Shown: piece by piece, positions 2,386 through 57,546 of the stretch
Position numbering within the stretch: position 1 is the stretch's first letter
Layout of the letters: each line of letters starts with the position of its first letter
From: a virus
DNA length: 64,000 bases
Direction: 5' to 3' (one strand)
Virus record (IMG/VR): IMGVR_UViG_3300037478_000708
Span: 64,001 to 128,000 of that record
Notes under the pieces: generated by a model
Told to the model about the DNA's origin: nothing
What the model saw: the letters and a program-made list of their open reading frames with translations, nothing else
Databases searched by the model: none
Position numbers and translations under genes: made by a program

Positions 2386-2410
2386 GCCCAGTGACACGCT
2401 GTCACTGGGC
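2386..2410 (+). repeat. Dispersed palindrome copy 1 (GCCCAGTGACA-CGC-TGTCACTGGGC)
   Basis: Core GTGACACGCTGTCAC at 2391-2405 with 11-bp perfect arms; intergenic between tube and chaperone. Confidence 0.95.
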
Positions 2411-2462
2411 TCCGACAACTCACCCCGGGACCTCAACCTCCTGACACCGCAGGAGCCCACTC

Positions 2463-3311
2463 ATGGCCGAACTAGGTTGGATCGACTACACCCTCCCCTC
2501 TCGGGGGAGGGTCTACGGGAGCCGGCTTCCCGACGGCAAGGTGCAGATCCGCACCATGACCGCGCGCGAGCAGGCGAAGCTGAGCCAGCAAGGTGGCGGG
2601 ATCGTCGGGAAGGTGAACGCCATCGTCAACGCGTGCGTGCGTCTGCCCGAGGACTTCGGGAGCGCCAAGCAGCTCATCCTGACGGACCGCTTCTCGCTCT
2701 TGCTTGCGATCCGCACGAAGACGTTCGGGCCGGTCTACGAGTACGAGTACCGCTGCGGCGGTTGTGGCGATCAGGTCAAGTCCGTCGTCAACATCGTCGA
2801 GGACTTGGACGAGCGCACGCCCACGGACGACTTCGAGGAGCCCTTCGCAGTGCTCCTGCCCGACTCGGGGAAGACGGTGCGGCTACGCCTCCTGCGCGGC
2901 ATCGACGAGGATCAGATCGTCGCGAACGCGCGTCGGATCCAGATGCAGTCCAACGATCCCGACGATCCGTCCTACCTGATCCGGGTCGCAATGCAGCTCG
3001 TCTCCGTCGACGAGGAGGAGGAGCCGTACAAGCCGCTTCCCTTCCGTCAGCGCTTCATCGAGAACCTGTCGGCCGGAGACCTCATCGCCCTGGAGGACGC
3101 GGTGAACGACGTCGAGCCCGGGATCGACACGCGGGTCTACCCCGCGTGCCCGCGTTGCGAGTACGTCAGCGAGATCAGCATGCCCTTCGTGGCCGAGTTT
3201 TTTCGTCCGAAGCGGCGGAGTCGACCTGCCAACGCTGGAAGCGAACACGTTCTTCCTCGTGTACCACGGCAAGGGGTTCACGAAGGAGGACGTGGACAAC
3301 ATGACGATTGA
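2463..3311 (+). CDS. Tail assembly / baseplate hub chaperone (T4 gp26-like)
   Basis: LPSRG..Y, IR.MTAREQ, L.LTDR, CxxC (CGGC), LRLLRG.DE, CPRC, MPF..EFFRP; position after the tube gene. Confidence 0.85.
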   Translation: MAELGWIDYTLPSRGRVYGSRLPDGKVQIRTMTAREQAKLSQQGGGIVGKVNAIVNACVRLPEDFGSAKQLILTDRFSLLLAIRTKTFGPVYEYEYRCGGCGDQVKSVVNIVEDLDERTPTDDFEEPFAVLLPDSGKTVRLRLLRGIDEDQIVANARRIQMQSNDPDDPSYLIRVAMQLVSVDEEEEPYKPLPFRQRFIENLSAGDLIALEDAVNDVEPGIDTRVYPACPRCEYVSEISMPFVAEFFRPKRRSRPANAGSEHVLPRVPRQGVHEGGRGQHDD

Positions 3312-3426
3312 TGAGCTGCTTCGCTACGCGCGGAGGCTCGCAGACCAGAAGAAGGCCGAGCAGGAAGCCTACGACGAGGCCGTGCGCAAGGCGAAGCGCA
3401 AGTCGAAGCAGCGCTCCCGCCGCTGA
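3199..3426 (+). CDS. Frameshift extension of the chaperone (gp51/'T'-like segment), +1 frame, absent from the ORF track
   Basis: +1 frame after GAG TTT TTT CGT reads FVRSGGVDLPTLEANTFFLVYHGKGFTKEDVDNMTIDELLRYARRLADQKKAEQEAYDEAVRKAKRKSKQRSRR*; no ATG/GTG/TTG before the FFLVYH motif. Confidence 0.75.
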   Translation, partial: FFVRSGGVDLPTLEANTFFLVYHGKGFTKEDVDNMTIDELLRYARRLADQKKAEQEAYDEAVRKAKRKSKQRSRR

Positions 3427-3487
3427 AAGCCCCGCGTAGACGCGTCCCTCTGGGCTTCCTACACTCGTCCCGACGCGGAGGTAACCG

Positions 3488-16219: not shown

Positions 16220-16240
16220 CCAGTGACAGCGTGTCACTGG
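16220..16240 (-). repeat. Dispersed palindrome copy 2
   Basis: CCAGTGACAGCGTGTCACTGG, the reverse complement of the copy-1 core, just after the spike stop. Confidence 0.95.
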
Positions 16241-17237: not shown

Positions 17238-17287
17238 CCGTCCCTGTAGAGAGGCGCCCGGACACCCTGTAGACTGCCCCCCGACCG

Positions 17288-25450: not shown

Positions 25451-25471
25451 CCGGTGACACGCTGTCACTGG
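25451..25471 (+). repeat. Dispersed palindrome copy 3
   Basis: CCGGTGACACGCTGTCACTGG, intergenic. Confidence 0.95.
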
Positions 25472-25560
25472 ACGCTCCCGGCGGGGTGTAGACACGCCCG
25501 GGGCGACGCGTCACCATACGCCCACTCGACGCTTCCCTAACCGCCCGAGAAGATCTCCTC

Positions 25561-32295: not shown

Positions 32296-32316
32296 CCAGT
32301 GACACGCTGTCACTGA
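32296..32316 (+). repeat. Dispersed palindrome copy 4
   Basis: CCAGTGACACGCTGTCACTGA, 9 bp from the -35 element of P1. Confidence 0.95.
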
Positions 32317-32513
32317 GCAGGGGGCACCTTGGGAAAGGTGCCGTACCTCCGGCAGACGACGCAGCACGCCGTCTCCGCGGCGACGCGTAGGGTCTCCTGC
32401 CGGCGAACCGGCCGGACCGCTCTACGCGCGCAGTCCTCGCTGCACACGTACTCCTGCGCGTCGGTGGCCAGGATCGTTACCCAGCGCGTCCGTTGTTGAT
32501 CGTAGGTCGGCAC
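32310..32513 (-). CDS. Small Cys-containing hypothetical protein
   Basis: 67 aa with CSEDC and CCVVC; fills the gap in the minus-strand operon. Confidence 0.4.
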   Translation of the reverse strand: MPTYDQQRTRWVTILATDAQEYVCSEDCARRAVRPVRRQETLRVAAETACCVVCRRYGTFPKVPPAQ

Positions 32514-44211: not shown

Positions 44212-44429
44212 CGCGTCCGCTCACGAGGCACCTCGCCGCCGAGCTGCGCCGCGCGGTGAACGCGACGGGGACGTACGACCCGCGCATCGCGCTGGTCGTG
44301 ATCGAGGAGTGGCTGACAGCGGAAGAGTTGGAGGACGCGGAGGCGTTCCTCAAGTGGATCTATCAGCGAGGGCTTACCTTCGGGCACAACATCTTTGAGG
44401 TCTGGGAAACGTGGCAGAGGTTGACATGA
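44208..44429 (+). CDS. Small hypothetical protein
   Basis: Coupled; FL.W......TFG..N motif. Confidence 0.55.
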   Translation: MTRPLTRHLAAELRRAVNATGTYDPRIALVVIEEWLTAEELEDAEAFLKWIYQRGLTFGHNIFEVWETWQRLT

Positions 44430-45163: not shown

Positions 45164-45193
45164 CTCAAGTCGGAGACCCCGCGCGGTCGAAGA
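45164..45193 (+). promoter_or_regulatory. sigma28-like promoter P6
   Basis: CTCAAG-N16-GTCGAAGA. Confidence 0.8.
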
Positions 45194-45233
45194 GGGGCGT
45201 ACAACGGGACACCGAAATCAGGAGAACCGAACC

Positions 45234-45539
45234 ATGCAACATCGATTCGCCAAGCCCGAGCCGCACGTCTTTCAGGGTCCGCCCTTGTGGTGGGCCACCC
45301 TTGATCCGCTTTCGGGTGACGGCCGTCCGGGCTGCGGACTGCTTCCCGGCTGGCGTCTGGAGGTCTTCTGCGGCCCCGTGCTGCGCTATCGCGAGACGTA
45401 CGTCGATCGTCCTCGCGTGATCGAGGACGCGCGAGCGGACGCGGACGCGTACATGAACGGGCGCGTGCCCGAGTGGCGCGCGGCCGTCGTGGGCGGGCTG
45501 ACCCTCGAGGATCTGGATCTGTCGAGGGAACCCGCGTGA
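45234..45539 (+). CDS. Hypothetical protein
   Basis: RBS AGGAG, first gene after P6. Confidence 0.6.
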   Translation: MQHRFAKPEPHVFQGPPLWWATLDPLSGDGRPGCGLLPGWRLEVFCGPVLRYRETYVDRPRVIEDARADADAYMNGRVPEWRAAVVGGLTLEDLDLSREPA

Positions 45540-47017: not shown

Positions 47018-47253
47018 GTCGCTACACGGGTGCGGGCAGCTACGGTCACCGCGTCAGGTCCACGGCATACCCTGATGAGTTCGTGATTCGCTGGACGTAT
47101 GACCGCTACTACAGCGGGAGCCGCTTGCGCTTCCCGCAATGTCGCGAGAGGTGGACGGACCGCAAGGGAGCGCTGCGCTTCGCGAAGAAGTGGGGTCTTC
47201 GCGGAAAGGACTCCGGCGGCCTGATCCCCGAGAAAGCCGGGCGCCTGACATGA
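47014..47253 (+). CDS. Small hypothetical protein
   Basis: ATGA coupling; GSRLRFP...A.RFAKKWG. Confidence 0.6.
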   Translation: MSRYTGAGSYGHRVRSTAYPDEFVIRWTYDRYYSGSRLRFPQCRERWTDRKGALRFAKKWGLRGKDSGGLIPEKAGRLT

Positions 47254-47633
47254 ACGTCTCCGAAGCGATCGCGATCGTCAGCCGGCTCACCTACAAGCCG
47301 GGCTGGTCGCTCCAGGCGTACCCCGAGCCGCACACCGGCGGTCTGATCCTTCGCTTCGGGAAAGACGAGCCTGACAGCGAGAAGGGCGGCGACGCCGTGC
47401 GTCCGCTCATGTACACGACGCAGATCCCGAAGCAGCGCCTTGATGACTTCTCGCGAGATCTCTTCTTGCGGACCGTCTTCGCTACCGTGACCGCGCGGGA
47501 GCTGCACGAGGTCGAGGAGTGGCTCCGCCTGGATGGGGAGCCGCTCTTCGAGCCGCATCCGGAGACGGGGCACCGTGGCGTCTTGGGGGACGGCACGAGC
47601 CTCGTGCCCGTTCTTCGACATTTCCTCAAGTGA
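47250..47633 (+). CDS. Hypothetical protein
   Basis: YKPGW, ELHE..EW.R.DG...F.PH motif of small phage proteins. Confidence 0.65.
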   Translation: MNVSEAIAIVSRLTYKPGWSLQAYPEPHTGGLILRFGKDEPDSEKGGDAVRPLMYTTQIPKQRLDDFSRDLFLRTVFATVTARELHEVEEWLRLDGEPLFEPHPETGHRGVLGDGTSLVPVLRHFLK

Positions 47634-47654
47634 CGCGCGGTCGCATGCCGATGA
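47625..47654 (+). promoter_or_regulatory. sigma28-like promoter P7
   Basis: CTCAAG-N16-GCCGATGA. Confidence 0.8.
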
Positions 47655-47675
47655 CGTCTGTGGAGGCAACATCCC

Positions 47676-48122
47676 ATGCAGATCGAGATCCCGACCAACA
47701 GCAACGTCTTCCGTCACCTTCGCGACGGGGTGGCCGAAACTCCGGCCCTCACGCTCCCGAAGGCGACCATCTACCTGCCGAACGAGTTCTTCGGCAACTG
47801 GGTTCGCGTCGAGGTGCGCAACCTCGTCGTCTACCAGGCGCAGTACGCGCAGTACCCCTCGGCGTTGCACGTGACGTACGTGCCCAAGGGCAAGCGCAAG
47901 GCGCGCTCGCGGACCTTCGGTGCCTACCCGCGTCTCGTCGTCTACGAAGGCTGGGGAGCCGGTCCGGAGCCCGAGAGCATGCTCGGCGAGCTGCGGCAGG
48001 AGGGCTCCGTCACCGTGCGGTCCTCCCGGCGCGCTTCCTGCGATGCCGGCTGGGACGTGGAGATGCGGCGGCGCGTCGAGGCCGCGGAAGGTCGGCCGGT
48101 CTTCTCGGTGTTCGTGAGCTGA
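47676..48122 (+). CDS. Hypothetical protein
   Basis: RBS GGAGG; YAQY..A....Y.PKGKRK.R motif. Confidence 0.7.
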   Translation: MQIEIPTNSNVFRHLRDGVAETPALTLPKATIYLPNEFFGNWVRVEVRNLVVYQAQYAQYPSALHVTYVPKGKRKARSRTFGAYPRLVVYEGWGAGPEPESMLGELRQEGSVTVRSSRRASCDAGWDVEMRRRVEAAEGRPVFSVFVS

Positions 48123-48155
48123 GCCCCGATGACGGGACGCTCGGAAGAAAAGGCC

Positions 48156-48185
48156 CTAAAGGTCCGACCGCCGTTCGGTCGATGA
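48156..48185 (+). promoter_or_regulatory. sigma28-like promoter P8
   Basis: CTAAAG-N16-GTCGATGA. Confidence 0.8.
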
Positions 48186-48207
48186 GGGAGTATTAGGAGG
48201 CAACGTC

Positions 48208-48798
48208 ATGAGAGTCATCGAAGTCATCCCCGCGCGCCGTTGGCGCAACGTCGTGAACGGCCGCGCCGTGAGCATCTACGGCTGCGTGCCGTGGACGAGC
48301 GACGCCGAGAAGGCCGACTGGACCCTGGAGACGTCCGGTTGGACCTGGCGCAACGACAACGGAACCGTCGGTCTCAGCCGGCCGCCCGCGAAGACGCGCG
48401 AAGAGGCCGAGCAGATCATGCGGACGTTCAACAACCTCGGAGTCGAGTCGGGAGACGGCGTGAAGAAGAGCATGAAGAAGCGACTGACGCCGCAGGAGTC
48501 CGCGAAGCGCCTTCGCAGTCGCCTCAAGAAGAGCTTCCCCGGCGTGAAGTTCTCGGTCCGTCTCTCGCGAGGCACGGCCTACGGCAACGTGAGCGTGCGC
48601 TGGTCGGAAGGCCCGCCCTTCTACGAAGACGTCGCGAAGGTCGCGCTGCCCTACGAGGGCAAGAGCTTCGACGCGATGACGGACTCGACGTCGCACCACG
48701 AGCGACCGATCGGAACGGAGGACGGAACGGTCCTGCTCTCCGGGCTCGGCTACGTGCTCCTCCACGGCCCCTGGCGAGCGGCGGGAGTGCAGCCGTGA
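48208..48798 (+). CDS. Protein with C-terminal LPD29-like domain
   Basis: AK.LR..LKK.FPGVKFSVR...V.W..GP...Y.G..FD.M.D. Confidence 0.75.
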   Translation: MRVIEVIPARRWRNVVNGRAVSIYGCVPWTSDAEKADWTLETSGWTWRNDNGTVGLSRPPAKTREEAEQIMRTFNNLGVESGDGVKKSMKKRLTPQESAKRLRSRLKKSFPGVKFSVRLSRGTAYGNVSVRWSEGPPFYEDVAKVALPYEGKSFDAMTDSTSHHERPIGTEDGTVLLSGLGYVLLHGPWRAAGVQP

Positions 48799-49187
48799 GC
48801 AAGCCTCTGATCCACGACGAGCAGGGGCTCCGTGGCGCGACCGTGAACGGCTACAAGGTCCGCGTCTGGGACGACGGCTCAGGTCCCCTGTGGGTCCTGC
48901 TGGAGACGCTAGGCGTCACCGGCATCGTGCGTGCGGAGACCTTGGAGAAAGCCTTCGTCTGCGCCGTGGATGAGATCATGGACGACGCAGATGAGTCCGA
49001 CCCCGACAACCGCCCCGATGAGCACGGCAACCTTCCCGAGGGCCTGCACTACCGCGGGAGCGGCGTCCCCAGCCAAGAAGGGCTGGAGAGCCCTGTGGCG
49101 CAGGAGGACGTGAACGGCAGCCGCCTGGAGCGTCTGACGCCTGAGCTGGCCGAGGAGCTGCGCGTAGAGGTCGTGCTCTCCACGTGA
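48795..49187 (+). CDS. Acidic hypothetical protein
   Basis: GTGA coupling; DDG.GPLW...GIVRA motif. Confidence 0.6.
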   Translation: MSKPLIHDEQGLRGATVNGYKVRVWDDGSGPLWVLLETLGVTGIVRAETLEKAFVCAVDEIMDDADESDPDNRPDEHGNLPEGLHYRGSGVPSQEGLESPVAQEDVNGSRLERLTPELAEELRVEVVLST

Positions 49188-49212
49188 TACGCTGACCTCG
49201 TTGGGTGGAAGC

Positions 49213-49233
49213 CCGGTGACAGCGTGTCACTGG
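49213..49233 (-). repeat. Dispersed palindrome copy 5
   Basis: CCGGTGACAGCGTGTCACTGG, intergenic before P9 and the GGDEF gene. Confidence 0.95.
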
Positions 49234-49337
49234 ACATTGCGTGTGCATCGGGGCAACGCGGTCTCGTCAGCCGCGCTTGCCGATTCTCCTGAGTGACGAG
49301 CGACCCCTGGAGTCCTGTTCTCCAGGGGTCGTTTTCG

Positions 49338-49367
49338 CTTCAGTCCCGTTGCCGCCCTGGTCGATGA
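49338..49367 (+). promoter_or_regulatory. sigma28-like promoter P9 (likely leaderless GGDEF transcript)
   Basis: CTTCAG-N16-GTCGATGA; GTG start 7 nt downstream. Confidence 0.75.
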
Positions 49368-49374
49368 AGGGTCC

Positions 49375-49869
49375 GTGGAAGACCTGACCAGAACCCAACT
49401 GCGGCGCCGCGTGGCGTTCCTCGAAGAGCGCAATCGCCAGCTCGAATTGCTCGTGAACACGGACGGCCTCACGGGGCTCCTGAACCGGCGTGCGTGCGAT
49501 CAGTCGCTCGCGGAGCGTCCCGGGGCGTACGTGATCGCGATCGACCTGAACGGCTTCAAGGCCGCTCAAGACGCGCCTGATCGAGGGCACCCGTGGGGGG
49601 ATGCCCTACTGCGGCGCTTCGCCGACTGGCTGCGCGCGACGACGCGCGAGCACGACTACCTGGCTGCACGGCCGGGCGGGGACGAATTCGTGGTCGTGGC
49701 GAGCGCGGACGCCGCGGGGGCGCAAGCGGTCGCGGAGCGGGTTCAACAATGGGAAGACTCCGGCGTCACCGCTTCGGCCGGGGTGGGCGCGTCCTGGGAC
49801 GCGGCCGACGCAGCGCTCTACCGCGTGAAGGCCGCGCGGAGGTCGAAGAAGGAACGGGTCGCCGCCTAA
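49375..49869 (+). CDS. Stand-alone GGDEF (diguanylate cyclase-like) protein
   Basis: Coiled coil, then TDGLTGLLNRR, DLNGFK, GH..GD.LL, RxxD, R.GGDEF, SAG, AD.ALY..K. Confidence 0.92.
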   Translation: MEDLTRTQLRRRVAFLEERNRQLELLVNTDGLTGLLNRRACDQSLAERPGAYVIAIDLNGFKAAQDAPDRGHPWGDALLRRFADWLRATTREHDYLAARPGGDEFVVVASADAAGAQAVAERVQQWEDSGVTASAGVGASWDAADAALYRVKAARRSKKERVAA

Positions 49870-49948
49870 CGATCCGCTCCTCTCGCTCCGGAAAGGAAAC
49901 CGCAAAGCCCCCTTTCGTCTCCCGGACGGAGGGGGTAGCGTTGATGCC

Positions 49949-50137
49949 ATGACGGAACCTCGTGTTGCGGAGCGCCCCTGTCAGGGACGCTACGAAGATG
50001 GTCGCTGCACGGTTTGCGGACACGCCGATGAGGATGCCGCGTTCGGTGCTGCGTGCCGTCGAAACGAATCCGGGTCACCCCGCGAGTTTCGTCATGTTCT
50101 GGGGGTGGCGGGCGACACCGGCTCGCTGCCCCAATGA
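49949..50137 (+). CDS. Small Cys-rich hypothetical protein
   Basis: 62 aa with CTVCG. Confidence 0.4.
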   Translation: MTEPRVAERPCQGRYEDGRCTVCGHADEDAAFGAACRRNESGSPREFRHVLGVAGDTGSLPQ

Positions 50138-50168
50138 CAACAACCCTGATTCCCTGAGAGGATCCCCC

Positions 50169-50660
50169 ATGCTTCGCGCACTTTCCCACCTCTGTCTGAT
50201 GGCGGCCATGCTCTGCTCGCCGCTGATGCTCCACGCGCAGCTCACGCCCGGCGGCAACGACATCGGCAGCATCCCGGCGGCGGCCCAGAAGGGCACCAAG
50301 AAGACCATTCACCCGGGCGACTGCCACACCAACGGTGACGGCGTGAAGGTCTGCAACGGAGAGGCCAGCTCCGGCAACGCGACCATCGACCCCAAGGATG
50401 GCGACGAAGCGAGCGCTACGACCGTCGATACGAAGAGCGGTTTCCAGGGCAAGATCGAGGGAACCGACAGCAACGACACCGTGAACCTCGGCAGCGGCAA
50501 CAAGGCGACCGTCTCCGGCAGCGGTTCGACGATCAACGTCTCCGGCGGCTCGACGATCACGGTTCAAAACGCAGCGGGCGGTGGCGACATGACCGTCAAC
50601 CTCCCGAGCGGCGATCACGTCTCCGTGCCGGCGGGCTCGTCCGTCGTGGTTCACACCTAG
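50169..50660 (+). CDS. Secreted Gly/Ser/Thr/Asn-rich beta-solenoid-like protein
   Basis: Signal peptide MLRALSHLCLMAAMLCSPLMLHA-Q; repeats TVN.GSG, TIN.SGGS. Confidence 0.75.
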   Translation: MLRALSHLCLMAAMLCSPLMLHAQLTPGGNDIGSIPAAAQKGTKKTIHPGDCHTNGDGVKVCNGEASSGNATIDPKDGDEASATTVDTKSGFQGKIEGTDSNDTVNLGSGNKATVSGSGSTINVSGGSTITVQNAAGGGDMTVNLPSGDHVSVPAGSSVVVHT

Positions 50661-50669
50661 GTCCGAGCC

Positions 50670-51323
50670 ATGAAGACCCTCGCAGTATTGGCCGTCGTGG
50701 TGTCCGTGCTCATCTTCGCGCACTTCGCGCGTCACTCTGCGAGAGAAGCGCAGGAGCACCGGGCGGTGCTCGCGCGCAGTGAGATTCGCGATGCCGAAAG
50801 GGCTCTCATTGAGCCGGCTTCGCAAGAGCCCGTGCGCGAGCCTGCCAGCCTTTCTCCCTCGGCTGCTCTTCCCGAAGAGCATGGCAGTCTCGCGCCTTCT
50901 TCCACCCAAGCGGTGCTTCCGGACGTGTCCGCAGAGTGTCTGGAGCTGCACCGCGAGAACGCGACGCTCAAGAAGCGCGTCGAGTGGCTGGAGGTCGAGT
51001 TGTCGCTGTGCGGATCCGAGGTCACCAAGGGTGCGATCGGCGAGTGGCTCTCGGTGCTGCGCATCGACGAGCGGCCCGACGCCGAGACGTTGCGCACGAT
51101 GGCCTATCTGCTCGCCGAGTATCCGGGCGTGCGCCTGGCGGTCGAGGAGGGGCTGTGGATCGCTGAACGCGTCAAGGCGAAGGATTGGAAGAGCTGGGCG
51201 CCCACGATCGACGAGGCGCTCATCATGATGCTCGGCGCAGATCGCATCGCGCGGGAAGTGCCTCCGACGAAGCTGGAGGAGCTGCGCGAAGACTGGCAGG
51301 ACGAAGGCTACTTCGACCGCTGA
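50670..51323 (+). CDS. Membrane-anchored hypothetical protein
   Basis: N-terminal TM helix, Pro/Ser linker, coiled coil. Confidence 0.7.
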   Translation: MKTLAVLAVVVSVLIFAHFARHSAREAQEHRAVLARSEIRDAERALIEPASQEPVREPASLSPSAALPEEHGSLAPSSTQAVLPDVSAECLELHRENATLKKRVEWLEVELSLCGSEVTKGAIGEWLSVLRIDERPDAETLRTMAYLLAEYPGVRLAVEEGLWIAERVKAKDWKSWAPTIDEALIMMLGADRIAREVPPTKLEELREDWQDEGYFDR

Positions 51324-51416
51324 CGCGACGAACGACAACCGGCCGTTACGAGGGCTGTCGGGAACACGCTTCTCGGCAGCCCTTTTCTTCAACCATCCAC
51401 TGCTACGGGTTCAGCT

Positions 51417-52124
51417 ATGCAACGGAGAAGGGGCAGGTACGCCGCGTGGGAAGATGCGCGCATCACCGAAGAGTTCGCGCGCACGCGCTTGGAGCAGCTC
51501 GCCGACAAGATCGGACGCGAGCCGGAGAAGGTCGAAGCGCGCGCAGCACTCCTCTTCCAGGGTCCGGAGCGCGCCGGCCCGTGGACGCAAGAGGAGGACG
51601 CGCTGCTTCGGGAGTGCGTCGGAGTCGGTGCGCTGCCCCACGTTGCTGTGCGGTTGCGCCGGTCGACGTGGGACGTGCAGGAGCGCCTGCGGGGGTTGCT
51701 CTCAGAGGCGCAGCGGAGTGAGCCGCTCACGCACGCAGAGCGGCAAGTGCTCAAGCGGGTCTACGGGAGCCGCAAGCTCGACGAGCTGCGCGTGATCTTC
51801 GGTCGACGCGGGGAAGTGATCGAGTCGACCGCCGCGCAGATGTACCTCGCGAAGGACAAGGCTTTCGTGCGGAGCATCGGCGGGTCCTCCCGCATGCCGC
51901 GCTGGTCCGACGAGGAAGAGACCTTGCTGCGCAAGTGCTACGCGCAGAGTTCCAATGTTGAACTGGCGTCTCTGCTCGGTCGGTCGGTAAAGTCCATCAT
52001 CGCGAAGGCCAGTTCGATGGGCTTGAAGAAGGGGCCGGAACGGCTGCGCGCGATGGGACAAGAGAACATTAGACTTCGATACAGGAAAAAGACACCGGAT
52101 GTTCACGATCGACGCGGCGCTTGA
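51417..52124 (+). CDS. Multi-repeat Myb/SANT-like HTH DNA-binding protein
   Basis: Four repeats such as PWTQEEDALLRE...LRRS and RWSDEEETLLRK.Y....NVELA.LLGRSV.S. Confidence 0.8.
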   Translation: MQRRRGRYAAWEDARITEEFARTRLEQLADKIGREPEKVEARAALLFQGPERAGPWTQEEDALLRECVGVGALPHVAVRLRRSTWDVQERLRGLLSEAQRSEPLTHAERQVLKRVYGSRKLDELRVIFGRRGEVIESTAAQMYLAKDKAFVRSIGGSSRMPRWSDEEETLLRKCYAQSSNVELASLLGRSVKSIIAKASSMGLKKGPERLRAMGQENIRLRYRKKTPDVHDRRGA

Positions 52125-53859
52125 GGTTCTTCGCGAGCGCTGGGGCTACTCCAGTTTCCGGCCGAGTCAGCGCGAAGCCATGCGCTGCATCGGTGAGGGG
52201 GATGACGTGCTGGCCGTGCTACCCACCGGCACCGGCAAGTCGCTGCTCTTCCAACTCCCCGCGCTCATGGAAGAGGGTGGCACGATCGTCGTGTCGCCCC
52301 TGATCGCGCTGATGAAGGATCAGGTCGACGCCGCGCAGGCGCGCGGCATCCCGGCCGCGTGCATCAACTCCAACATGGACGAGGACGATCAGTGGGACGC
52401 CTTGGAGGGGTTCGTCTCCGGCGCCTACAAGCTGCTCTACATCTCGCCCGAGCGCATCGGCGTGCGTTCGTTCCTGACGGCCGTGCAGCGCGCGGACGTG
52501 TCGATCGTGGCCGTTGACGAGGCGCACTGTTGCTCGCAGTGGGGGCATCAGTTCCGGCCGGAGTACATGCACATCCACCGCCTGATCCGTTCGCTCTCCG
52601 ATGGGGAGACCCGGCCGCAGGTGCTCGCCATGACGGCCACGGCCACGCGTATCGTGGTGGAGGACATCGTGCAGTCCCTCGGCCTCAAGGCCGACGAGGT
52701 GAGCACCCTTGTCGCCGATCCGATTCGGCCGAACCTGAGCTACCTCGTGGAGGACGGGGGCATCGACGGCTACGGGAACGCGTGGAACATCTTCCGCCGG
52801 ATCGTGCGCACCTTCGACGTGCGCGACGGCCGGCACATCGTCTACGTGAACTCACGCGCAGGCGCGGAGAAGCTCGCGGAGGTCTGCGAAGAAGAGCTGT
52901 GGTCGGGGATCGCTGCCCCGTACCACGCGGGGCTCACCGGCGAGAAGCGGACCGCGATTCAGGAGGACTTCACCGATCCGAGCGGTGCGGTCAAGATCGC
53001 GTGCGCGACGACAGCCTTCGGGATGGGCGTCGACGTTCCGAACATCCGGACCGTGGTCCTGTTCGGGTATCCGGGCTCGCTCGAGGACTACGTGCAGCAG
53101 ACCGGCCGCGCCGGCCGCGACGGGCTCCTGTCGAAGACGATCCTCATCGCCGACGAGATGTCCGCCAGCTTCCAGATGCGGATGATCGAGAACGAGAACC
53201 CGCCGCTCCAGTCCTACGTGCTCTTGTGGGACTGGCTCCATGCGCAGCTCCAGCCGGGCGAGACGTTGCGCGCATCGCGCATGTCGATCTCGCAGGCGGT
53301 TTCGCGACAGGGGGTCGCCGCCATGAACCCCGATCAGGTGGGCGTGGTCCTGAACCGCCTGCATTCGGTGGGTCTGATCGAGCGTCGGCCGATTGAGGAG
53401 GGTGTGCCCGTCAAGGTCAAGCTGGACGGCCTCACGGAGGCCCTCGCCAACCCGGGCAAGGCCCGGCCGCAGATCACGCACGTCTGGAGAGCCTTCGCCG
53501 AGAACTGCGTGAAGCCCGCCCAGGCCAAGGCGCCGGCTGAGGATCCGCTGACCGTCTGGATCAACAAGACGGCGCTGAAAGAGGCTTCGGGGCTCAGCCC
53601 GTACTACGTGACGAAGGCGCTGGAGGCGCTCCTCAAGCGGGGGGCCGTCTTGGACATCGGCAAGGCGCAGTCGGGTTACCTCATCAAGATCCTCAAGTGG
53701 CGCGTTCCGCTCGAGGTGGAGCTACCGGTAGGGCGCATCGAGGAGAAGCGCGCACGGGACTTCGCTCGGTTCGACCGCATGCGGACCTTCTCGAGGCTCC
53801 TCGGGGAGGACGAGCGCAAGGACATGCTGCGCCACTACTTCCTTCACGCGACCGAATGA
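52099..53859 (+). CDS. recQ: RecQ-family DNA helicase
   Basis: WGYSSFRP.Q, LPTGTGKSL.FQLPAL, SPLIALMKDQV, DEAHCCSQWGHQFRP.Y, TATAT, YHAGL, TTAFGMGVD, Y.Q..GRAGRDG. Confidence 0.95.
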   Translation: MFTIDAALEVLRERWGYSSFRPSQREAMRCIGEGDDVLAVLPTGTGKSLLFQLPALMEEGGTIVVSPLIALMKDQVDAAQARGIPAACINSNMDEDDQWDALEGFVSGAYKLLYISPERIGVRSFLTAVQRADVSIVAVDEAHCCSQWGHQFRPEYMHIHRLIRSLSDGETRPQVLAMTATATRIVVEDIVQSLGLKADEVSTLVADPIRPNLSYLVEDGGIDGYGNAWNIFRRIVRTFDVRDGRHIVYVNSRAGAEKLAEVCEEELWSGIAAPYHAGLTGEKRTAIQEDFTDPSGAVKIACATTAFGMGVDVPNIRTVVLFGYPGSLEDYVQQTGRAGRDGLLSKTILIADEMSASFQMRMIENENPPLQSYVLLWDWLHAQLQPGETLRASRMSISQAVSRQGVAAMNPDQVGVVLNRLHSVGLIERRPIEEGVPVKVKLDGLTEALANPGKARPQITHVWRAFAENCVKPAQAKAPAEDPLTVWINKTALKEASGLSPYYVTKALEALLKRGAVLDIGKAQSGYLIKILKWRVPLEVELPVGRIEEKRARDFARFDRMRTFSRLLGEDERKDMLRHYFLHATE

Positions 53860-54434
53860 TGTTCGACTTCCGCCCCAAGAACGTCTGGCTGACGGCCGAT
53901 CATCACTTCTTCCACAACGGCATCCTGCATCCGCAGCACGGCTCCTCGCGGGCGAGCCGATGGAGCACGCCGGAGGAGATGCACGCGGCGCTGCTCGACC
54001 AGTGGCGCCACACGGTCGGCCCGCACGATGTCGTCTACTCCGTCGGAGACCTGTTCTTCCGCATCGGTCGGGCTCGAACGCTCGAGCTGCTGCGCGCGCT
54101 GAGCGGGTTTCGGATCGTGCTCCTCTGCGGCAACCACGACGGGGAGCGGCTCGAGAAGCTCGCGCGACAGCAGGCGCTTCCGGACAACGTGCAGGTCGTG
54201 CCGCGGTCGGAGAGTTTCGTGGCGCTCGGCGAGTACCGGCGCGCGGTGATGAGCCACTGGCACACGGAGCGCTGGCCCGGCCGTGAACGCGGTACGGTGC
54301 TTGTACACGGTCACTCCCACGGGAAGCGCAAGGTGGAACCCGACCGGCTCGACGTCGGATGGGACGTCTACGGCAGGCTTCTTCACCTCGAAGAGGTGCG
54401 CGCCTACTTCGAGCGCGGGGAACGTCCGAAGTAG
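53856..54434 (+). CDS. Calcineurin-like metallophosphoesterase
   Basis: ADHHF.H, VGD, GNHD, SH, HGHSH, DVG.D. Confidence 0.9.
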   Translation: MMFDFRPKNVWLTADHHFFHNGILHPQHGSSRASRWSTPEEMHAALLDQWRHTVGPHDVVYSVGDLFFRIGRARTLELLRALSGFRIVLLCGNHDGERLEKLARQQALPDNVQVVPRSESFVALGEYRRAVMSHWHTERWPGRERGTVLVHGHSHGKRKVEPDRLDVGWDVYGRLLHLEEVRAYFERGERPK

Positions 54435-54520
54435 GCACTTGTGCGGCCGTGGGAAGTAGACCCCCAACATCTTGCGGTTGACGAGCCGCCGCCAGACCTG
54501 TATCCGCGCACGCGCACTAT

Positions 54521-54650
54521 GCCTGTAAGGGGCCTTGAAGGGAGCTTGTAGGTCCCTGGAAGACGCCTGTAAGGGAGCCTGGAAGGCGCCTTCCAAAACA
54601 GTAGAGACCAAAGAGACTACAGAGACAGAAGCTACAAAATACACAAGAGG
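54521..54650. repeat. Origin-like region: about six 10-12-bp direct repeats followed by an A-rich tract
   Basis: GCCTGTAAGGG, GCCTTGAAGGGA, GCTTGTAGGTC, CCTGGAAGAC, GCCTGTAAGGGA, GCCTGGAAGGC, then AAAACAGTAGAGACCAAAGAGACTACAGAGACAGAAGCTACAAAATACACAAGAGG. Confidence 0.6.
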
Positions 54651-54722
54651 GGGCGGTCCTGGCGGACCGCCCCGACCGGAAGGCTTCGCTTGGGTTCGGG
54701 AAGCCACCGCCCGGACACCTGT

Positions 54723-54743
54723 CCAGTGACAGCGTGTCACCGG
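54723..54743 (-). repeat. Dispersed palindrome copy 6
   Basis: CCAGTGACAGCGTGTCACCGG; with flanks, a 23-bp exact reverse complement of copy 3. Confidence 0.95.
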
Positions 54744-54853
54744 AAAAAATCTGCGCGCGAGCTTCGCCCAGGTACCCCCGGTCGGTAGAATCCTGTTCCC
54801 ACGTGGGGATCTCACGCTCGGACGCGCAGGTCACCACACCCATGCGGGAACAG

Positions 54854-54887
54854 CCCCCCGGGCCTTTCGGGGTCCGGGGGGTCTTTT
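54854..54887 (+). terminator. Intrinsic terminator
   Basis: CCCCCCGGGCCT-TTCG-GGGTCCGGGGGG followed by TCTTTT. Confidence 0.8.
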
Positions 54888-54935
54888 CCATCCGAGACCA
54901 CGGCTCATCGAGCCGACCGGACGGGGATACCTGCC

Positions 54936-56522
54936 ATGAAACATCGCGCGGCCATCTACGTGCGCGGCGCCTGGGCCGAGCTGAGGAACGCTCCCGCCGG
55001 GACGCTGGAGGGGTGCCTCTCGTTCAAGCACCCGAACCCCTGGTACTCCAAGGCGTTCCGGGAGAAGCGCTGGGACGGCCGCGTGCGCCTGTTCAAGGGC
55101 GATCAGTTCCCGGCCGGGCACACGCCGATCGTCGCGGCGTACCTGAGCGAACTCGGGCGGGACGTCTTCATCTCGGGCTTCGAGGATCGGAAAGACGTCG
55201 ACCTGTCCGAGCTGACAAGAGACTACCTTCCCGGAATCGAACTGTGGGATCATCAATGGAACGCAATCACTTCTCTTCTTAGTCACAAGAGGGGTGTTGT
55301 CAAGAGCCCCACCGGGTCCGGGAAGACCGAAGACATCTTCACCGTGGCCGCGTACCTGTGGGAGCAACGGAACTGGCGCTCGTTGGTGATCGAGCCCACC
55401 AAGGGCTTGATGCGGCAGACGTACGAGCGCGCCTGCGCGTACTTCCACGACTGGATCTCCGTCGGCATGGCCGGCGACGGCGAGCGTGTCGAAGGCAACG
55501 TCGTCATCGCGACGGGTCAGACGATGCAACACTGGCGCACCACGCGCCGCAAGGGGCGCATCCGTCCAGCGGACGCGTGGCTCCGCGATCTGGTCAAGCA
55601 CTACGAGGTCATGTTCCTCGACGAGTGCCACAAGGCCAGCTCGGACATGTGGTACGACATCGCGATGAACTCCGGTGCGCACCGGCGCTACGGGTTCAGC
55701 GGCACGCCGATCAAGGACAACGTGATCGACGACATGCGCCTGATCGGAGCGACGGGTCCGATCGTCTTCGACGTCGCCGCCACCGGGCTGATCGAGCGGG
55801 GGCTGGCCGCGCGTCCGAAGATCCTCATGGTCATGAGCGACGCGGTGAGCGGGCCCTCGATCGACGAAGACATCGAGCTGGCGTGCGAGGAGCAGGAGGC
55901 CGCGCTTCGGAAGAAGCGCAGGGCTCGTGGCGGGAAGACGCCCAAGCCGAGCAAGTACCGCATCGCCTACCGGCTCGGGATCTTGGAGAACGAGAGTCAC
56001 AACCGCGCCGTCGTGCGCGTCGCGCAGTGGATGGTCGACCACGGCCGCAAGACGCTGCTCCTGTGCCGCTACAAGGAGCACTACGACATCCTCGCGGAGC
56101 TGCTCGAGGAACAGGGCACGAAGTTCATCGGCGTCTGGGGCGCGACGGACAACTCCGATCGTGCCCACGCGAAGAAGGCGCTCGGCGACGGGCGCGTTAG
56201 CTTGGTCCTCGCGACAGGGATCTGGGACGAGGGTGAAGACATCCCCGGCGTGAACGGACTCGTGTTCGCGGAGGGTGTGGCCGCGACCACGAACTCGCGT
56301 CAGCGCGTCGGCCGCGGGATGCGCGGAGACACCGAGGATGTTTGGGTTGTTGACTTTGTTCCCACCTGCAACAAGACCCTTATCGAACACGCCGCGAAGC
56401 GCGCGGATGCGTGGGAAGGCGAGGGGTACGAAGTGCTCGTGTGGGAGGACTGGCCCGAAGAAGGCAAGGAGCTAGATCTTCCGTTCGCGAGGTGGGATGA
56501 TTCGTGCGAACGTTCGGCGTGA
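54936..56522 (+). CDS. SF2 helicase (UvsW/XPB-like)
   Basis: WDG.VRLF, LWDHQ, PTGSGKT, DECH, GFSGTP, DEG.DIP, QRVGRGMR, V.DF. Confidence 0.92.
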   Translation: MKHRAAIYVRGAWAELRNAPAGTLEGCLSFKHPNPWYSKAFREKRWDGRVRLFKGDQFPAGHTPIVAAYLSELGRDVFISGFEDRKDVDLSELTRDYLPGIELWDHQWNAITSLLSHKRGVVKSPTGSGKTEDIFTVAAYLWEQRNWRSLVIEPTKGLMRQTYERACAYFHDWISVGMAGDGERVEGNVVIATGQTMQHWRTTRRKGRIRPADAWLRDLVKHYEVMFLDECHKASSDMWYDIAMNSGAHRRYGFSGTPIKDNVIDDMRLIGATGPIVFDVAATGLIERGLAARPKILMVMSDAVSGPSIDEDIELACEEQEAALRKKRRARGGKTPKPSKYRIAYRLGILENESHNRAVVRVAQWMVDHGRKTLLLCRYKEHYDILAELLEEQGTKFIGVWGATDNSDRAHAKKALGDGRVSLVLATGIWDEGEDIPGVNGLVFAEGVAATTNSRQRVGRGMRGDTEDVWVVDFVPTCNKTLIEHAAKRADAWEGEGYEVLVWEDWPEEGKELDLPFARWDDSCERSA

Positions 56523-56613
56523 AATTTTCTTGAGACACGCTTGACGTCGCCCGTCGGAAGGGATAAACCAGCCCCCGTGGTGATCCCGATGGCGTTTGAT
56601 TCGACGAGAGAGC

Positions 56614-57546
56614 GTGAAGACGAAACTACCAGTCCCGTCTCCAGACGGCGTGCCGCCGTGCTTCGGTGTTCAGTACCGCGAGGCCGACAAGGGCTGCGCT
56701 TGCTGCCGAGTGCGCGCACACTGCGCACCGAGAGCGCAACGCTGGCGCGAGAAGCGCTCGCTCTCCGAGCTGCTCGCCGATGCCGACGCGCGGTTGCGTC
56801 ACGCGCGTTCCGACGAAACGCTGCAAGAGATCTACGACCGGCTGCACCGCGAGATCTTCGGGACGATCTCACGCCGTTCCTCGAGTGAGGCGAACGAGGA
56901 TCTCTTCGCGCGGTTGTTCGCCTTCCTGCGCCGTGAGGAGATCGACCTAGCGACCTACGTCGCCGGTAACATGTGGGCGATGAAGCCCTGGGTCGAGTCG
57001 AATCCGCGCATCGGGTTCCAACCCAACCACCTGTCCGGCGAGCGCGCCCTGCGGCGCTACTACGCGTACCTCGGCCGGCAGAGACGGCGCTTCCGGCAGC
57101 AACGGCACACGGGCGAGACGGGCGGCACGCTGACGGCCAACATCCGACAGCAGATCTTCCTGGGGGAGTACGCGGTGGGGCTGGAGTACGTGCGGACGTA
57201 CGTGGCCGAGGGAGACGCGAGCTGGGCCGCCGCGATCGAAGAGGCGCAGCCGTCGGCGGATTGGCGCGCGGTCGAATGCGGCCCCTCGGGAGGCAAGCGC
57301 TACCACGAGCTGTGCACGATCTTCGGCACGCATCGGCTGTCGGCGGAGAAGCAGCGGGCCACGCTCAAGGCGGCCTGCGTCGTGGCCGAGAGCTACGAGC
57401 ACGACCTCTCGCACCGCGTCGGCGTCCGCGGTGCGTTCACCTGGGCCGACTTCGCCGTGCTCATCGCGCGGCTCTACCCGCTCGACACGCCCAGTGACAC
57501 GCTGTCACTGGCCGAGGTGCAGGGGGTCGCCTGGCATGGTTGCTGA
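56614..57546 (+). CDS. Hypothetical replication-module protein with N-terminal Cys cluster
   Basis: PPCFG.......C.CC.....C; directly upstream of the DnaB-like helicase (start 56614 or 56596). Confidence 0.65.
   Translation: MKTKLPVPSPDGVPPCFGVQYREADKGCACCRVRAHCAPRAQRWREKRSLSELLADADARLRHARSDETLQEIYDRLHREIFGTISRRSSSEANEDLFARLFAFLRREEIDLATYVAGNMWAMKPWVESNPRIGFQPNHLSGERALRRYYAYLGRQRRRFRQQRHTGETGGTLTANIRQQIFLGEYAVGLEYVRTYVAEGDASWAAAIEEAQPSADWRAVECGPSGGKRYHELCTIFGTHRLSAEKQRATLKAACVVAESYEHDLSHRVGVRGAFTWADFAVLIARLYPLDTPSDTLSLAEVQGVAWHGC
57491..57511 (+). repeat. Dispersed palindrome copy 7 (inside a CDS, 24 nt before the helicase ATG)
   Basis: CCAGTGACACGCTGTCACTGG. Confidence 0.95.

What the first reader, a model, noticed from the sequence alone, without database searches (positions are those of the whole stretch)
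2386..57511. Seven dispersed copies of an invariant 15-bp palindrome GTGACA-CGC-TGTCAC (matS-like), in both orientations
Seen: cores at 2391, 16223(-), 25454, 32299, 49216(-), 54726(-) and 57494, with extended consensus CCRGTGACACGCTGTCACYGR, 3-17 kb apart and present in all three modules. Six lie at gene boundaries and one is retained inside a CDS. The asymmetric centre (CGC/GCG) never varies, but its orientation does not track transcription: copies 1 and 2 are opposite within one + operon. This argues for a dsDNA protein-binding site rather than an RNA hairpin. Known: the half-sites match the MatP site matS (GTGACRNYGTCAC) with a 3-nt instead of 1-nt centre. Inference: a genome-wide organising, partition, packaging or 'stoperator'-type site system. 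Copies beside the putative origin, the helicase start, P1 and the GGDEF gene suggest a global regulator.
Basis: partly seen in the sequence, partly recalled or inferred. Interest (0 to 1): 0.85.

Follow-up and report, generated by a model that had tools for sequence, protein, structure and literature searches.

The report
Evenly spaced ParB-type palindromes on phage
An uncultured 156-kb T4-like phage repeats one exact 15-letter DNA palindrome 17 times, about every 9,000 letters and almost always between genes; it most likely marks where the phage's own partner-less ParB/KorB-type DNA clamp docks, though binding has not been shown.

Summary
All seven exact copies lie at the stated coordinates, against 0 expected by chance. 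The whole 156,008-bp phage genome carries 17 identical copies and no degenerate ones. 15 of the 17 are intergenic (P~1e-12), and their spacing is far more even than chance (CV 0.40, P~1e-4).

It is not matS: the spacing differs and there is no MatP gene. It is not an intrinsic terminator: no T-run follows any copy, and ordinary terminators sit beside several copies. No RAYT gene and no abundant host copies were found, which argues against a REP element.

Related phages carry a different palindrome of their own at the same gene junctions, for example CTGGAC-N5-GTCCAG, TTGACA-CAA-TGTCAA and ATTTACGC-W-GCGTAAAT. So a whole site array changes in concert within a lineage.

The genome encodes an orphan ParB, 4 kb beyond the window end. 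It has the CTPase motifs, an HTH and a histone-H1-like tail, and no ParA. One palindrome lies 68 bp behind this gene. In 9 of 13 loci of this ParB family a GAC-type palindrome sits beside or inside the parB promoter.

Best reading (about 0.5): docking or loading sites for this ParB, working like KorB and its OB operators on plasmid RK2. Rivals are another dimeric regulator, an RNA hairpin, or recombination repeats. This scan has reached the same reading on several other phage genomes, but those are unchecked notes.

The parts
2391..2405 (.). Palindrome copy 1 (CGC on + strand; flanks gccca/tgggc give an 11-bp dyad). It lies 12 nt after the stop of the gp19-like tail tube gene (1843-2379) and 58 nt before the T4_baseplate gene (2463).
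   Evidence: The same junction carries the lineage's own palindrome in G1, G2, G3, G6, G8 and G9.
16223..16237 (.). Palindrome copy 2 (GCG on + strand). It lies 5 nt after the stop of the gp5/VgrG-like baseplate hub gene (14968-16218) and 35 nt before the next start (16272).
25454..25468 (.). Palindrome copy 3 (CGC). It lies 43 nt after the tail-fibre gene 24119-25411. The putative late-promoter word TGTAGAC follows at 25487, and the next gene starts at 25561.
   Evidence: The orthologous junction in G1 carries CTGGAC-CCGGT-GTCCAG, also followed by gtgtagac.
32299..32313 (.). Palindrome copy 4 (CGC on + strand), between two minus-strand ORFs. It lies 8 nt upstream of the start of 31680-32291(-) and overlaps the TGA of the small ORF 32310-32513(-).
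49216..49230 (.). Palindrome copy 5 (GCG), in the spacer upstream of the GGDEF-domain gene (49375-49869). A sigma28-like -10 (GCCGAT) and a classic terminator hairpin follow it.
54726..54740 (.). Palindrome copy 6 (GCG), in the 501-nt intergenic region with iteron-like repeats (54435-54935). The order there is GC-rich terminator hairpin, then palindrome, then A6 tract, then TAGAAT -10, then the helicase gene at 54936.
57494..57508 (.). Palindrome copy 7 (CGC), inside the 3' end of ORF 56596-57546, where it reads SDTLSL. It lies just upstream of the DnaB-like helicase gene.
   Evidence: G8 has three tandem copies of its own palindrome just upstream of its DnaB gene.
25487..25493 (+). TGTAGAC, a putative late-promoter word. 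This is one of 10 + strand copies in the genome, 5 of which lie within 65 nt of a palindrome.
   Evidence: 0 of 20,000 random placements reached the observed count of 5.

Best explanation
The palindrome is a double-stranded DNA site read by a symmetric (dimeric) phage protein. The most likely reader is the phage's own orphan ParB/KorB-family protein, encoded at genome 132092-133399, which is 4 kb beyond the window end.

Proposed mechanism, all inferred: ParB dimers recognise the two GTGACA half-sites and load there as CTP-dependent clamps. They then slide or spread into flanking DNA. Because sites recur about every 9 kb, the 17 sites together reach the whole 156-kb chromosome.

Many sites sit directly after a terminator and before a promoter or start codon. 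The array therefore probably modulates transcription-unit boundaries, as KorB does from its OB operators. The protein's Lys/Ala-rich histone-H1-like tail suggests it may also coat or compact phage DNA.

Shown here: the site array, its even spacing, its concerted replacement in relatives, the ParB gene and its motifs, and the parB-palindrome adjacency.

Inferred: binding, clamp loading, and the downstream effect.
For: (1) Array properties.
- 17 identical copies with no degenerate ones, 15 of 17 intergenic, and spacing far more even than chance.

(2) The pattern looks like dsDNA rather than RNA.
- The asymmetric centre is invariant yet occurs in both orientations within + strand operons.
- At the first flanking position the half-sites vary independently: 6 single-sided changes and 0 double changes.
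- No T-run longer than 3 follows any copy on either strand.
- Ordinary GC-rich terminators exist, and one stands directly upstream of the palindrome in the parB-exonuclease spacer and at 54726.

(3) Concerted, lineage-specific sites at conserved junctions.
- G1 and G2 carry CTGGAC-N5-GTCCAG (7 copies in 72 kb and 3 in 37 kb).
- G3 carries TTGACA-CAA-TGTCAA (9 copies).
- G8 and G9 carry ATTTACGC-W-GCGTAAAT (16 and 5 copies, some in tandem).
- G5, G6 and G7 have others.
- Exactly orthologous junctions include the one after the tail tube gene, the one before the MazG-like gene, the one after the tail fibre gene, and parB-exonuclease.

- ParB_N scores 1e-14.
- It aligns with Spo0J, Noc and ParB structures across the CTPase domain and HTH at E 2e-13.
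- The GERR and ENxxxxR motifs are invariant in 12 homologs.
- No ParA gene is present. No ParA-binding LG[KR]GL motif appears in the sequence printed; the motif definition comes from PMC12704722.
- The homolog P0002 carries an H1/HC2-like tail hit, PF07382.

(5) Adjacency.
- A site lies 68 bp after parB in G0, and at the same place in L309, L310 and L311.
- A palindrome overlaps the -35/spacer of the parB promoter in L230, L313, L319 and L321. Half-sites flank it in G8.
- 9 of 13 parB loci have a GAC-type palindrome within -220 to +120 of the gene, 5.6 times background.
- One of these, L312, is in a non-syntenic context.
- Arrays recur around parB in L321, L311 and L312.

(6) Suggestive co-variation.
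- The residue after the conserved Arg-Arg of the recognition helix is Ser in the three ParBs whose site has GGAC, and these lie on two separate branches.
- It is Ala in four of the ParBs whose site has (T/A)GACA or TGACAA (G0, P0010, P0012, P0022); two others with TGACA-type sites have Cys.

(7) Precedent.
- KorB is a ParB-family CTP clamp that acts from operators placed either next to or far from promoters (PMC11790492, read).
Against: - No binding data of any kind exist.
- G8's ParB keeps the same KVRR recognition core yet its palindrome is entirely different, so the read-out rule is unclear.
- G4 is complete and has a ParB homolog, but carries a different, longer inverted repeat. None of its copies was listed near parB.
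- L318 and L320 have only weak GC-rich palindromes at parB.
- G3, G5, G6 and G7 show arrays, but their contigs are fragments without a ParB gene, so co-occurrence there is untested.
- The co-variation rests on about ten pairs of related proteins.
- An invariant 3-bp centre is unusual for a dimer that contacts only its half-sites. It could instead mean recent copying.
- The adjacency statistic counts nested hits and related loci.
Confidence: 0.5

Rival explanations
1. The sites are operators for a different phage-encoded dimeric DNA-binding regulator, such as an early-gene shut-off repressor or a late activator. ParB would then be merely one of its regulated genes.
For: - The same dsDNA-type evidence applies.
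- In G3, L230, L313, L319 and L321 the palindrome overlaps the -35/spacer of sigma70-type promoters, the classic repressor position.
- In G0, 5 of 10 TGTAGAC words lie within 65 nt of a site.
- G8's ParB keeps the KVRR helix although its site is unrelated.
- Other candidates exist: a Myb/D5-like regulator at 51417-52124, and a small basic zinc-ribbon protein whose start lies 10 nt from the site at genome 57215.
Against: - No other DNA-binding gene shows conserved adjacency to the palindromes.
- The parB-proximal palindrome persists over 40-60% ParB divergence and in a non-syntenic context.
- Even 9-kb spacing is not expected of ordinary promoter operators.
Confidence: 0.2
2. The palindrome acts in RNA, or in single-stranded DNA, as a stable hairpin. 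It would be a U-tract-less attenuator, an mRNA 3'-end stabiliser, or a device that couples translation of adjacent genes.
For: - It forms an 11-bp stem with a triloop at -17 to -19 kcal/mol, z about -5.
- About 10 copies lie within 45 nt after a stop codon.
- Four copies use the TGA inside GTGACA as the upstream stop, and about seven have a start codon within 10 nt.
- The junction after the highly expressed tail tube gene carries some hairpin in all relatives, including distant ones with ordinary terminators.
- Arms change in a compensatory way between lineages.
Against: - A structure-only hairpin need not be identical in 17 places, nor keep an invariant loop that flips between CGC and GCG relative to transcription.
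- There is no pairing covariation outside the core, and no bias toward G-U over A-C: 4 against 2.
- No U-tract follows any copy.
- Classic terminators sit immediately upstream of several copies.
- Tandem copies and half-sites at promoters in G8 fit protein binding.
Confidence: 0.15
3. The copies are recombination or mobility repeats: PeSL-like shuffling points, REP-like elements spread by a transposase, or targets of a homing endonuclease. On this view they have no trans-acting reader.
For: - Perfect identity, including the centre, would follow from recent copying.
- One copy abuts a NUMOD4-HNH homing endonuclease gene at genome 7357.
- In G3, four copies sit in conserved terminator-plus-promoter cassettes of about 100 nt that resemble PeSLs (PMC4122927).
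- Paralogous genes flank two of the sites.
Against: - Similarity between G0 copies stops at 25-31 bp.
- No RAYT/Y1 transposase is present.
- No multi-copy host or viral source was found.
- Positions are conserved across lineages while the sequence is replaced in concert. Copy-paste spread does not predict this, nor the even spacing.
Confidence: 0.07

Closest known systems
KorB and its OB operators on IncP-1 plasmid RK2 (PMC11790492; PMC13584720; PMC13768133)
   Same:
- One palindromic operator is dispersed over the replicon, some copies just upstream of promoters and others far from any.
- It acts over a distance by sliding from the loading site.
   Different: - KorB has a ParA partner (IncC) and clamp-locking co-repressors (KorA, TrbA). 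No ParA is present here, and no KorA-like partner has been identified.
- The replicon here is a 156-kb T4-like phage, apparently lytic, not a plasmid.
- The sites are evenly spaced at about 9 kb.
- The site sequence is unrelated.
- The protein carries a histone-H1-like tail.
17-bp repeat TGTTCGG-NNN-CCGAACA of Cluster O mycobacteriophages (Corndog; PMC4351075)
   Same: - Invariant inverted-repeat arms around a 3-bp asymmetric centre that occurs in both orientations without relation to transcription.
- Tens of copies per phage genome, many in short intergenic gaps.
- Absent from the host.
   Different: - The sequence and the phage group (siphoviruses of Mycobacterium) are different.
- There are 34 copies in about 70 kb, a third of them inside genes.
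- No even spacing or ParB link was reported.
- The centre is variable there but invariant here.
Dispersed SopB centromere repeats of the linear plasmid-prophage N15, and chromosomal parS/ParB (from my own knowledge; not read here)
   Same: A ParB-family protein with several palindromic sites scattered through a phage genome rather than clustered.
   Different: - N15 is a temperate plasmid-prophage with a ParA (SopA) and only four sites that serve partition.
- Here there is no ParA, there are 17 sites, and nothing indicates lysogeny.
matS/MatP of enterobacteria
   Same: The GTGAC/GTCAC arms.
   Different: - matS is 13 bp with 3 nt between the GTGAC arms; here the gap is 5 nt.
- No MatP gene is present.
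- The relatives' palindromes drift away from GTGAC altogether.
PeSL promoter-terminator cassettes of T4-type phages (PMC2839356; PMC4122927)
   Same: - Repeated intergenic elements in T4-like genomes that pair a stem-loop with a promoter.
- Four G3 copies sit in such cassettes.
   Different: - PeSLs are composite cassettes of a stem-loop, promoter and Shine-Dalgarno sequence, with variable stem-loops, and are concentrated in hyperplastic early regions.
- Here only 25 bp is conserved, it is invariant, and it is spread evenly through the structural and replication modules.

Membership tests
ParB/KorB-type site array (parS or OB-like) | Short palindromic DNA site with dyad symmetry | tested here: met
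   15-bp invariant core with 6-bp arms, extendable to 9-11 bp.
ParB/KorB-type site array (parS or OB-like) | A ParB-family protein (N-terminal CTPase fold with GxxRxxA and ENxxR boxes, plus an HTH) encoded by the same replicon | tested here: met
   ParB_N scores 1e-14. It aligns with Spo0J, Noc and ParB structures over the CTPase domain and HTH at E 2e-13. The GERR and EN...R columns are invariant. HTH_ParB is recorded on homologs.
ParB/KorB-type site array (parS or OB-like) | At least one site next to the parB gene or in its promoter | tested here: met
   68 bp after the parB stop in G0, and at the same place in L309, L310 and L311. In the promoter in L230, L313, L319 and L321. 9 of 13 loci in all.
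ParB/KorB-type site array (parS or OB-like) | The protein binds the site specifically and loads as a CTP-dependent clamp | not testable with these tools
   Needs EMSA, ChIP, or CTPase and cross-linking assays.
ParB/KorB-type site array (parS or OB-like) | Reader and site co-vary between lineages | tested here: inconclusive
   Ser against Ala after the conserved RR tracks GGAC against (T/A)GAC on two branches, but there are only about ten pairs, and G8 is an exception to any simple rule.
ParABS partition system | A ParA/Soj ATPase partner, and a ParA-binding motif on ParB | tested here: not met
   PF13614 finds nothing in the genome, while the control rings in 14 of 14 genomes. No LG[KR]GL motif is in the sequence printed.
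matS/MatP | 13-bp GTGACRNYGTCAC site | tested here: not met
   The arms are 5 nt apart here, not 3.
matS/MatP | MatP protein available to read it | tested here: not met
   PF06303 finds nothing in the phage at E<=0.1. The host is unknown.
Intrinsic (rho-independent) terminator | GC-rich hairpin followed by a U-tract | tested here: not met
   The hairpin is stable, but the longest T-run within 25 nt is 3 or less on both strands at all 17 sites. True terminators of that kind occur elsewhere in the genome.
REP elements with RAYT transposase | A Y1 transposase (RAYT), and many copies in the host chromosome | tested here: not met
   PF01797 is absent.
Cluster A stoperators | Asymmetric 13-14-bp site oriented with transcription and read by the immunity repressor | tested here: not met
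   The site is palindromic, and its centre orientation is mixed within + strand operons. No repressor or integrase was identified among the roughly 90 ORFs scanned.
PeSL cassettes | Composite conserved stem-loop plus sigma70 early promoter plus Shine-Dalgarno sequence | tested here: not met
   G0 copies share only 25-31 bp. There is no -10 at a fixed distance. Only the four G3 early-region copies look PeSL-like.

The most novel reading that the evidence does not exclude
A clade of uncultured T4-like phages tiles its whole chromosome with loading sites for a partner-less ParB clamp that carries a histone-H1-like tail. The phage DNA would then be coated or compacted, or its transcription units gated, by a phage-made chromatin-like system. 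This use of the ParB CTPase has no published description that I could find.
Probability: 0.3. Interest if true: 0.8.

Novelty: new variant of a known kind. Interest (0 to 1): 0.62.

Why it matters
- **A new role for ParB.** ParB/KorB clamps are known from chromosome and plasmid partition, and from plasmid and ICE gene control. Orphan ParBs are known to be common in phages, but their DNA targets and roles are undescribed (PMC12704722). An evenly spaced, genome-wide site array in a large phage without ParA would be such a role: whole-genome regulation, compaction or protection.

- **A natural specificity series.** At least six different palindromes occupy the same junctions in related phages, which gives a ready-made series for studying how a DNA-binding specificity and dozens of its sites switch together.

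- **Practical use.** The palindrome word is a lineage marker. It links contigs of one phage, as with G1 and L309, which come from one sample.

- **Testability.** The idea can be tested with one synthetic protein and a 25-bp duplex.

Tried and rejected
- **RNA evidence:** no RNA holder listed. The only run holding the stretch is the probable source DNA metagenome.
- **Laying that run's contigs on 44000-60000:** this gave only joints between 49233/49237 and 57491 with 22-23-nt sides. Those are short unitigs of the repeat itself, not rearrangements.
- **Exact and loose scans of viral contigs for the palindrome:** these found only single chance copies in unrelated contigs.
- **Megablast of 20 kb against cultured phages:** no match. 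The closest cultured major capsid proteins are under 33% identical, so there is no literature on a close relative.
- **Search for close ParB relatives:** the viral contigs gave one distant hit and the metagenome contigs gave none. The protein database search was what worked. Three of the twelve contig look-ups returned no DNA, so the sites of P0003, P0005 and P0008 are unknown.
- **Palindrome as a fixed -35 element:** rejected for G0. No -10 lies at a constant distance, and a strict TTGAC-N16-18-TAnnnT scan finds one site in the genome.
- **AhdI-type restriction site (GAC-N5-GTC):** considered and dropped, because the loose word is common and not avoided.
- **Structure and complex prediction:** not run, because sequence-level membership of ParB was already clear.

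Full report
**1. Observation**

The 15-mer GTGACACGCTGTCAC occurs seven times in the window, at 2391(+), 16223(-), 25454(+), 32299(+), 49216(-), 54726(-) and 57494(+). Shuffled sequence gives 0.00 copies. Allowing two mismatches and any centre adds nothing.

The window is bases 64001-128000 of a 156,008-bp virus record with 66.7% G+C, rated complete. The whole genome has 17 exact copies. Every looser pattern I tried, down to GTGAC-N5-GTCAC, also finds exactly these 17. Aligned, the copies read gYCCR-GTGACA-CGC-TGTCAC-YGGac, with up to 11-bp arms in six of them.

A rough GC3-based gene call gives about 88% coding sequence. 15 of the 17 copies are intergenic (P~1e-12). The two inside genes both read S-D-T-L-S-L. 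Gaps run from 2.8 to 16.9 kb with CV 0.40. That evenness is reached by 8e-5 of uniform placements and by 3e-5 of random choices among gene junctions.

**2. What the genome is**

- The window starts in the tail module: gp19-like tube, T4 baseplate protein, gp5/VgrG-like hub, baseplate J, and collar-domain fibres.
- It then passes through a region of small accessory genes: SNF2 helicase, methyltransferase, and a GGDEF protein.
- It ends in the replication module: two helicases, DnaB, primase, and a UDG-PolA fusion.
- Outside the window lie a T4-type portal, RecA, SbcCD-like genes and three ParB_N-domain proteins.
- No cultured phage is close. Megablast finds nothing, and the major capsid protein is at most 33% identical to any cultured phage protein.

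**3. What the palindrome is not**

- **Not matS.** The GTGAC arms are 5 nt apart, not 3, and no MatP gene is present.
- **Not a host or viral REP-like repeat, as far as tested.** No other viral contig has more than one copy. There is no RAYT transposase.
- **Not a MITE or long cassette.** Copies share only 25-31 bp.
- **Not the phage's terminator.** The hairpin would be stable, at -17 to -19 kcal/mol. But no copy is followed by more than three T's on either strand.
  - The genome does use ordinary GC-rich hairpins with T-rich tails, for example after the major capsid gene.
  - In the parB-exonuclease spacer, such a terminator stands immediately upstream of the palindrome in G0 and in three relatives. 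The same order of terminator, palindrome, promoter is seen at 54726.

**4. DNA or RNA?**

- The centre CGC is asymmetric and never varies, yet it points either way within + strand operons (9 CGC and 7 GCG). On double-stranded DNA these are the same object. In RNA they are two different loops.
- At the first flanking position the left half is A or G and the right half is T or C. There are six single-sided changes and no double change. The split is 4 G-U-compatible against 2 A-C, so there is no sign of pairing selection outside the invariant core.
- In G8 the lineage's palindrome occurs in tandem pairs and triplets 27-49 bp apart, and as half-sites inside a promoter. This is typical of protein operators.
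- I found no transcript data.
- These points favour a dsDNA site read by a symmetric protein, but they do not prove it.

**5. Relatives**

Contigs were found through the tail tube and capsid proteins. Each carries its own dispersed palindrome:

| Contig | Palindrome | Copies |
|---|---|---|
| G1 | CTGGAC-N5-GTCCAG | 7 in 72 kb |
| G2 | CTGGAC-N5-GTCCAG | 3 in 37 kb |
| G3 | TTGACA-CAA-TGTCAA | 9 in 96 kb |
| G5 | GGTGAC-N5-GTCACC | 5 |
| G6 | CCAACAA-W-TTGTTGG | 5 |
| G7 | TGACAC-W-GTGTCA | 2 |
| G8 | ATTTACGC-W-GCGTAAAT | 16 in 74 kb |
| G9 | ATTTACGC-W-GCGTAAAT | 5 |
| G4 | a longer inverted repeat | about 7 |

The places are conserved while the word changes. Four junctions show this:
- The junction after the tail tube gene carries the local palindrome in G0, G1, G2, G3, G6, G8 and G9.
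- The junction before the MazG-like gene carries it in G0, G1 and G2.
- The junction after the tail-fibre gene carries it in G0 and G1.
- The parB-exonuclease spacer carries it in G0, L309, L310 and L311.

Aligned on the dyad, G0 (GTGACA), G3 (TTGACA) and G2 (TGGACA) differ by single, mirrored substitutions. A whole array therefore switches in concert within a lineage. A free hairpin has no reason to do this. A site set that co-evolves with one reader does, as is known for other repeated operator sets.

**6. The candidate reader**

- Genome 132092-133399 encodes a 435-aa protein with ParB_N (1e-14) and an HTH.
- It aligns with T. thermophilus Spo0J, with Noc and with ParB structures across both domains, at E 2e-13.
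- The GERR and EN...R nucleotide-binding boxes are invariant among 12 homologs.
- No ParA is encoded. No ParA-binding LG[KR]GL motif is present in the sequence; the motif definition is from PMC12704722.
- The N-terminus is a Lys/Ala-rich tail. The homolog P0002 hits the histone-H1-like HC2 family.
- 46 homologs at 34-60% identity exist. In most of the loci fetched they keep the gene order RecA-ParB-5'-3' exonuclease.

**7. Link between ParB and the palindromes**

- A site lies 68 bp behind parB in G0. L309 comes from the same sample as G1 and carries G1's word, and it has a site at the same place. So does L310, which carries G2's word, and L311, which carries GGACA-TCG-TGTCC.
- In L230, L313, L319 and L321 a palindrome of the TGACA type overlaps the -35 and spacer of the parB promoter. 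In G8, half-sites of its own word flank the promoter.
- Over 13 loci, 9 have a GAC-type palindrome within -220 to +120 of parB. That is 5.6 times the density elsewhere (Poisson 6e-8). Nested hits and related loci inflate this figure.
- L312 carries the pair in a different, non-syntenic context. L321, L311 and L312 show further copies around parB.
- The residue after the conserved Arg-Arg of the recognition helix is Ser in the three ParBs whose site has GGAC. Those three fall on two separate branches of the tree. The residue is Ala in four of those whose site has (T/A)GACA or TGACAA, and Cys in two others with TGACA-type sites. This is suggestive only.
- **Counter-points.**
  - G8's ParB keeps the KVRR helix with an unrelated site.
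  - G4 has ParB but a different repeat, with no listed copy near parB.
  - L318 and L320 show only weak GC palindromes.
  - The fragments G3 and G5-G7 have arrays but no ParB on the DNA held.

**8. Likely mechanism**

The best-supported reading is that the 17 copies are docking or loading sites for the orphan ParB. Known ParB-family clamps load at their palindrome and slide kilobases. KorB does this to reach promoters from both proximal and distal operators (PMC11790492).

Sites every 9 kb or so would let such a clamp reach the whole phage chromosome. That would explain selection for even spacing. Many sites lie between a terminator and the next promoter or start. Five of the ten TGTAGAC words, a putative late-promoter motif, lie within 65 nt of a site. 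This points to an effect at transcription-unit boundaries. The H1-like tail points to coating or compaction. All of this is inference; nothing about binding or effect has been shown.

**9. Comparison and novelty**

- It works like KorB/OB of RK2, but lacks ParA and any known co-repressor, and it sits on a large T4-like phage.
- The closest published look-alike is the 17-bp repeat of Cluster O mycobacteriophages. Its arms, 3-bp asymmetric centre and orientation-free placement match this case closely, and its function is still unknown (PMC4351075).
- PeSL cassettes (PMC4122927) resemble only the four early-region copies of G3.
- Orphan phage ParBs are known to be common, without assigned sites (PMC12704722).
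- Two literature searches found no description of such arrays in lytic phages.
- Earlier notes of this scan reached the same reading for several other phage genomes. They are unchecked AI notes, not independent evidence, but they suggest the arrangement is widespread.
- I rate it a new variant of a known kind.

Noticed in passing
window 17268-17274 and 25487-25493; genome 57, 25051, 39836, 43471, 50815, 52364, 57275, 62806, 81268, 89487: The word (C/G)TGTAGAC occurs 10 times on the + strand, all within genome 57-89487. The copies I inspected lie just upstream of late genes. It is a candidate late-promoter element, the T4 TATAAATA analogue of this clade, and it also follows a G1 palindrome.
   Followed up: partly
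window 49250-49375: Just after palindrome copy 5 there is a sigma28-like -10 (GCCGATTC), followed about 40 nt later by a classic terminator (CCCCTGGAG...CTCCAGGGG plus a T-run). This may be a very short transcript or small RNA upstream of the GGDEF gene.
   Followed up: no
genome 132060-132090 (window-equivalent 68060-68090, beyond the window); L309, L310, L311 upstream of parB: The parB leader holds a conserved word, CCCTCGGACAACGCTGAGGAG, in four lineages. CCTC can pair with the GAGG Shine-Dalgarno sequence, so this may be a translational control hairpin.
   Followed up: no
window 54435-54935: A 501-nt intergenic region upstream of a helicase gene holds iteron-like repeats (CCTGTAAGGG / GCCTGGAAGG), several hairpins and a TAGAAT -10.
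   Followed up: no
genome 39808->49039 and 80223->89454: Two gaps between successive palindromes are exactly 9231 bp. No duplication explains this (self-BLAST), so it is probably coincidence. G3 also has two successive gaps of exactly 5989 bp.
   Followed up: partly
genome 32619 and 39808 (outside the window): One palindrome lies in a linker of the 2,572-2,619-aa polyprotein, right after the G-E-S of a protease-type linker. Another overlaps the polyprotein's stop codon. This is consistent with modules having been fused at former gene junctions.
   Followed up: no
genome 57000-57200, minus strand (outside the window): A small, very basic zinc-ribbon protein (about 65 aa) starts 10 nt from a palindrome, in a divergent promoter region. 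It is a possible DNA-binding protein.
   Followed up: no
G4 (155-kb relative with terminal repeats): 4441, 13689, 26630/26653, 62701, 119581, 138357/138380, 149230: A different dispersed element of about 50 bp: GTCAAGGGGTAATT...AATTACCCCTTGAC, with an inner GGTAA-TTCG-TTACC palindrome, preceded by GACAGTTGTC.
   Followed up: partly
window 60759-64000: The DNA polymerase A gene is fused at its N-terminus to a uracil-DNA-glycosylase-family domain. This is conserved in all relatives fetched.
   Followed up: no
genome 43576-44859 and 47325-48569 (outside the window): Two further ParB_N-domain proteins. One is fused to an N6/N4 DNA methyltransferase. Both are conserved in G1, G2, G6 and G7.
   Followed up: partly
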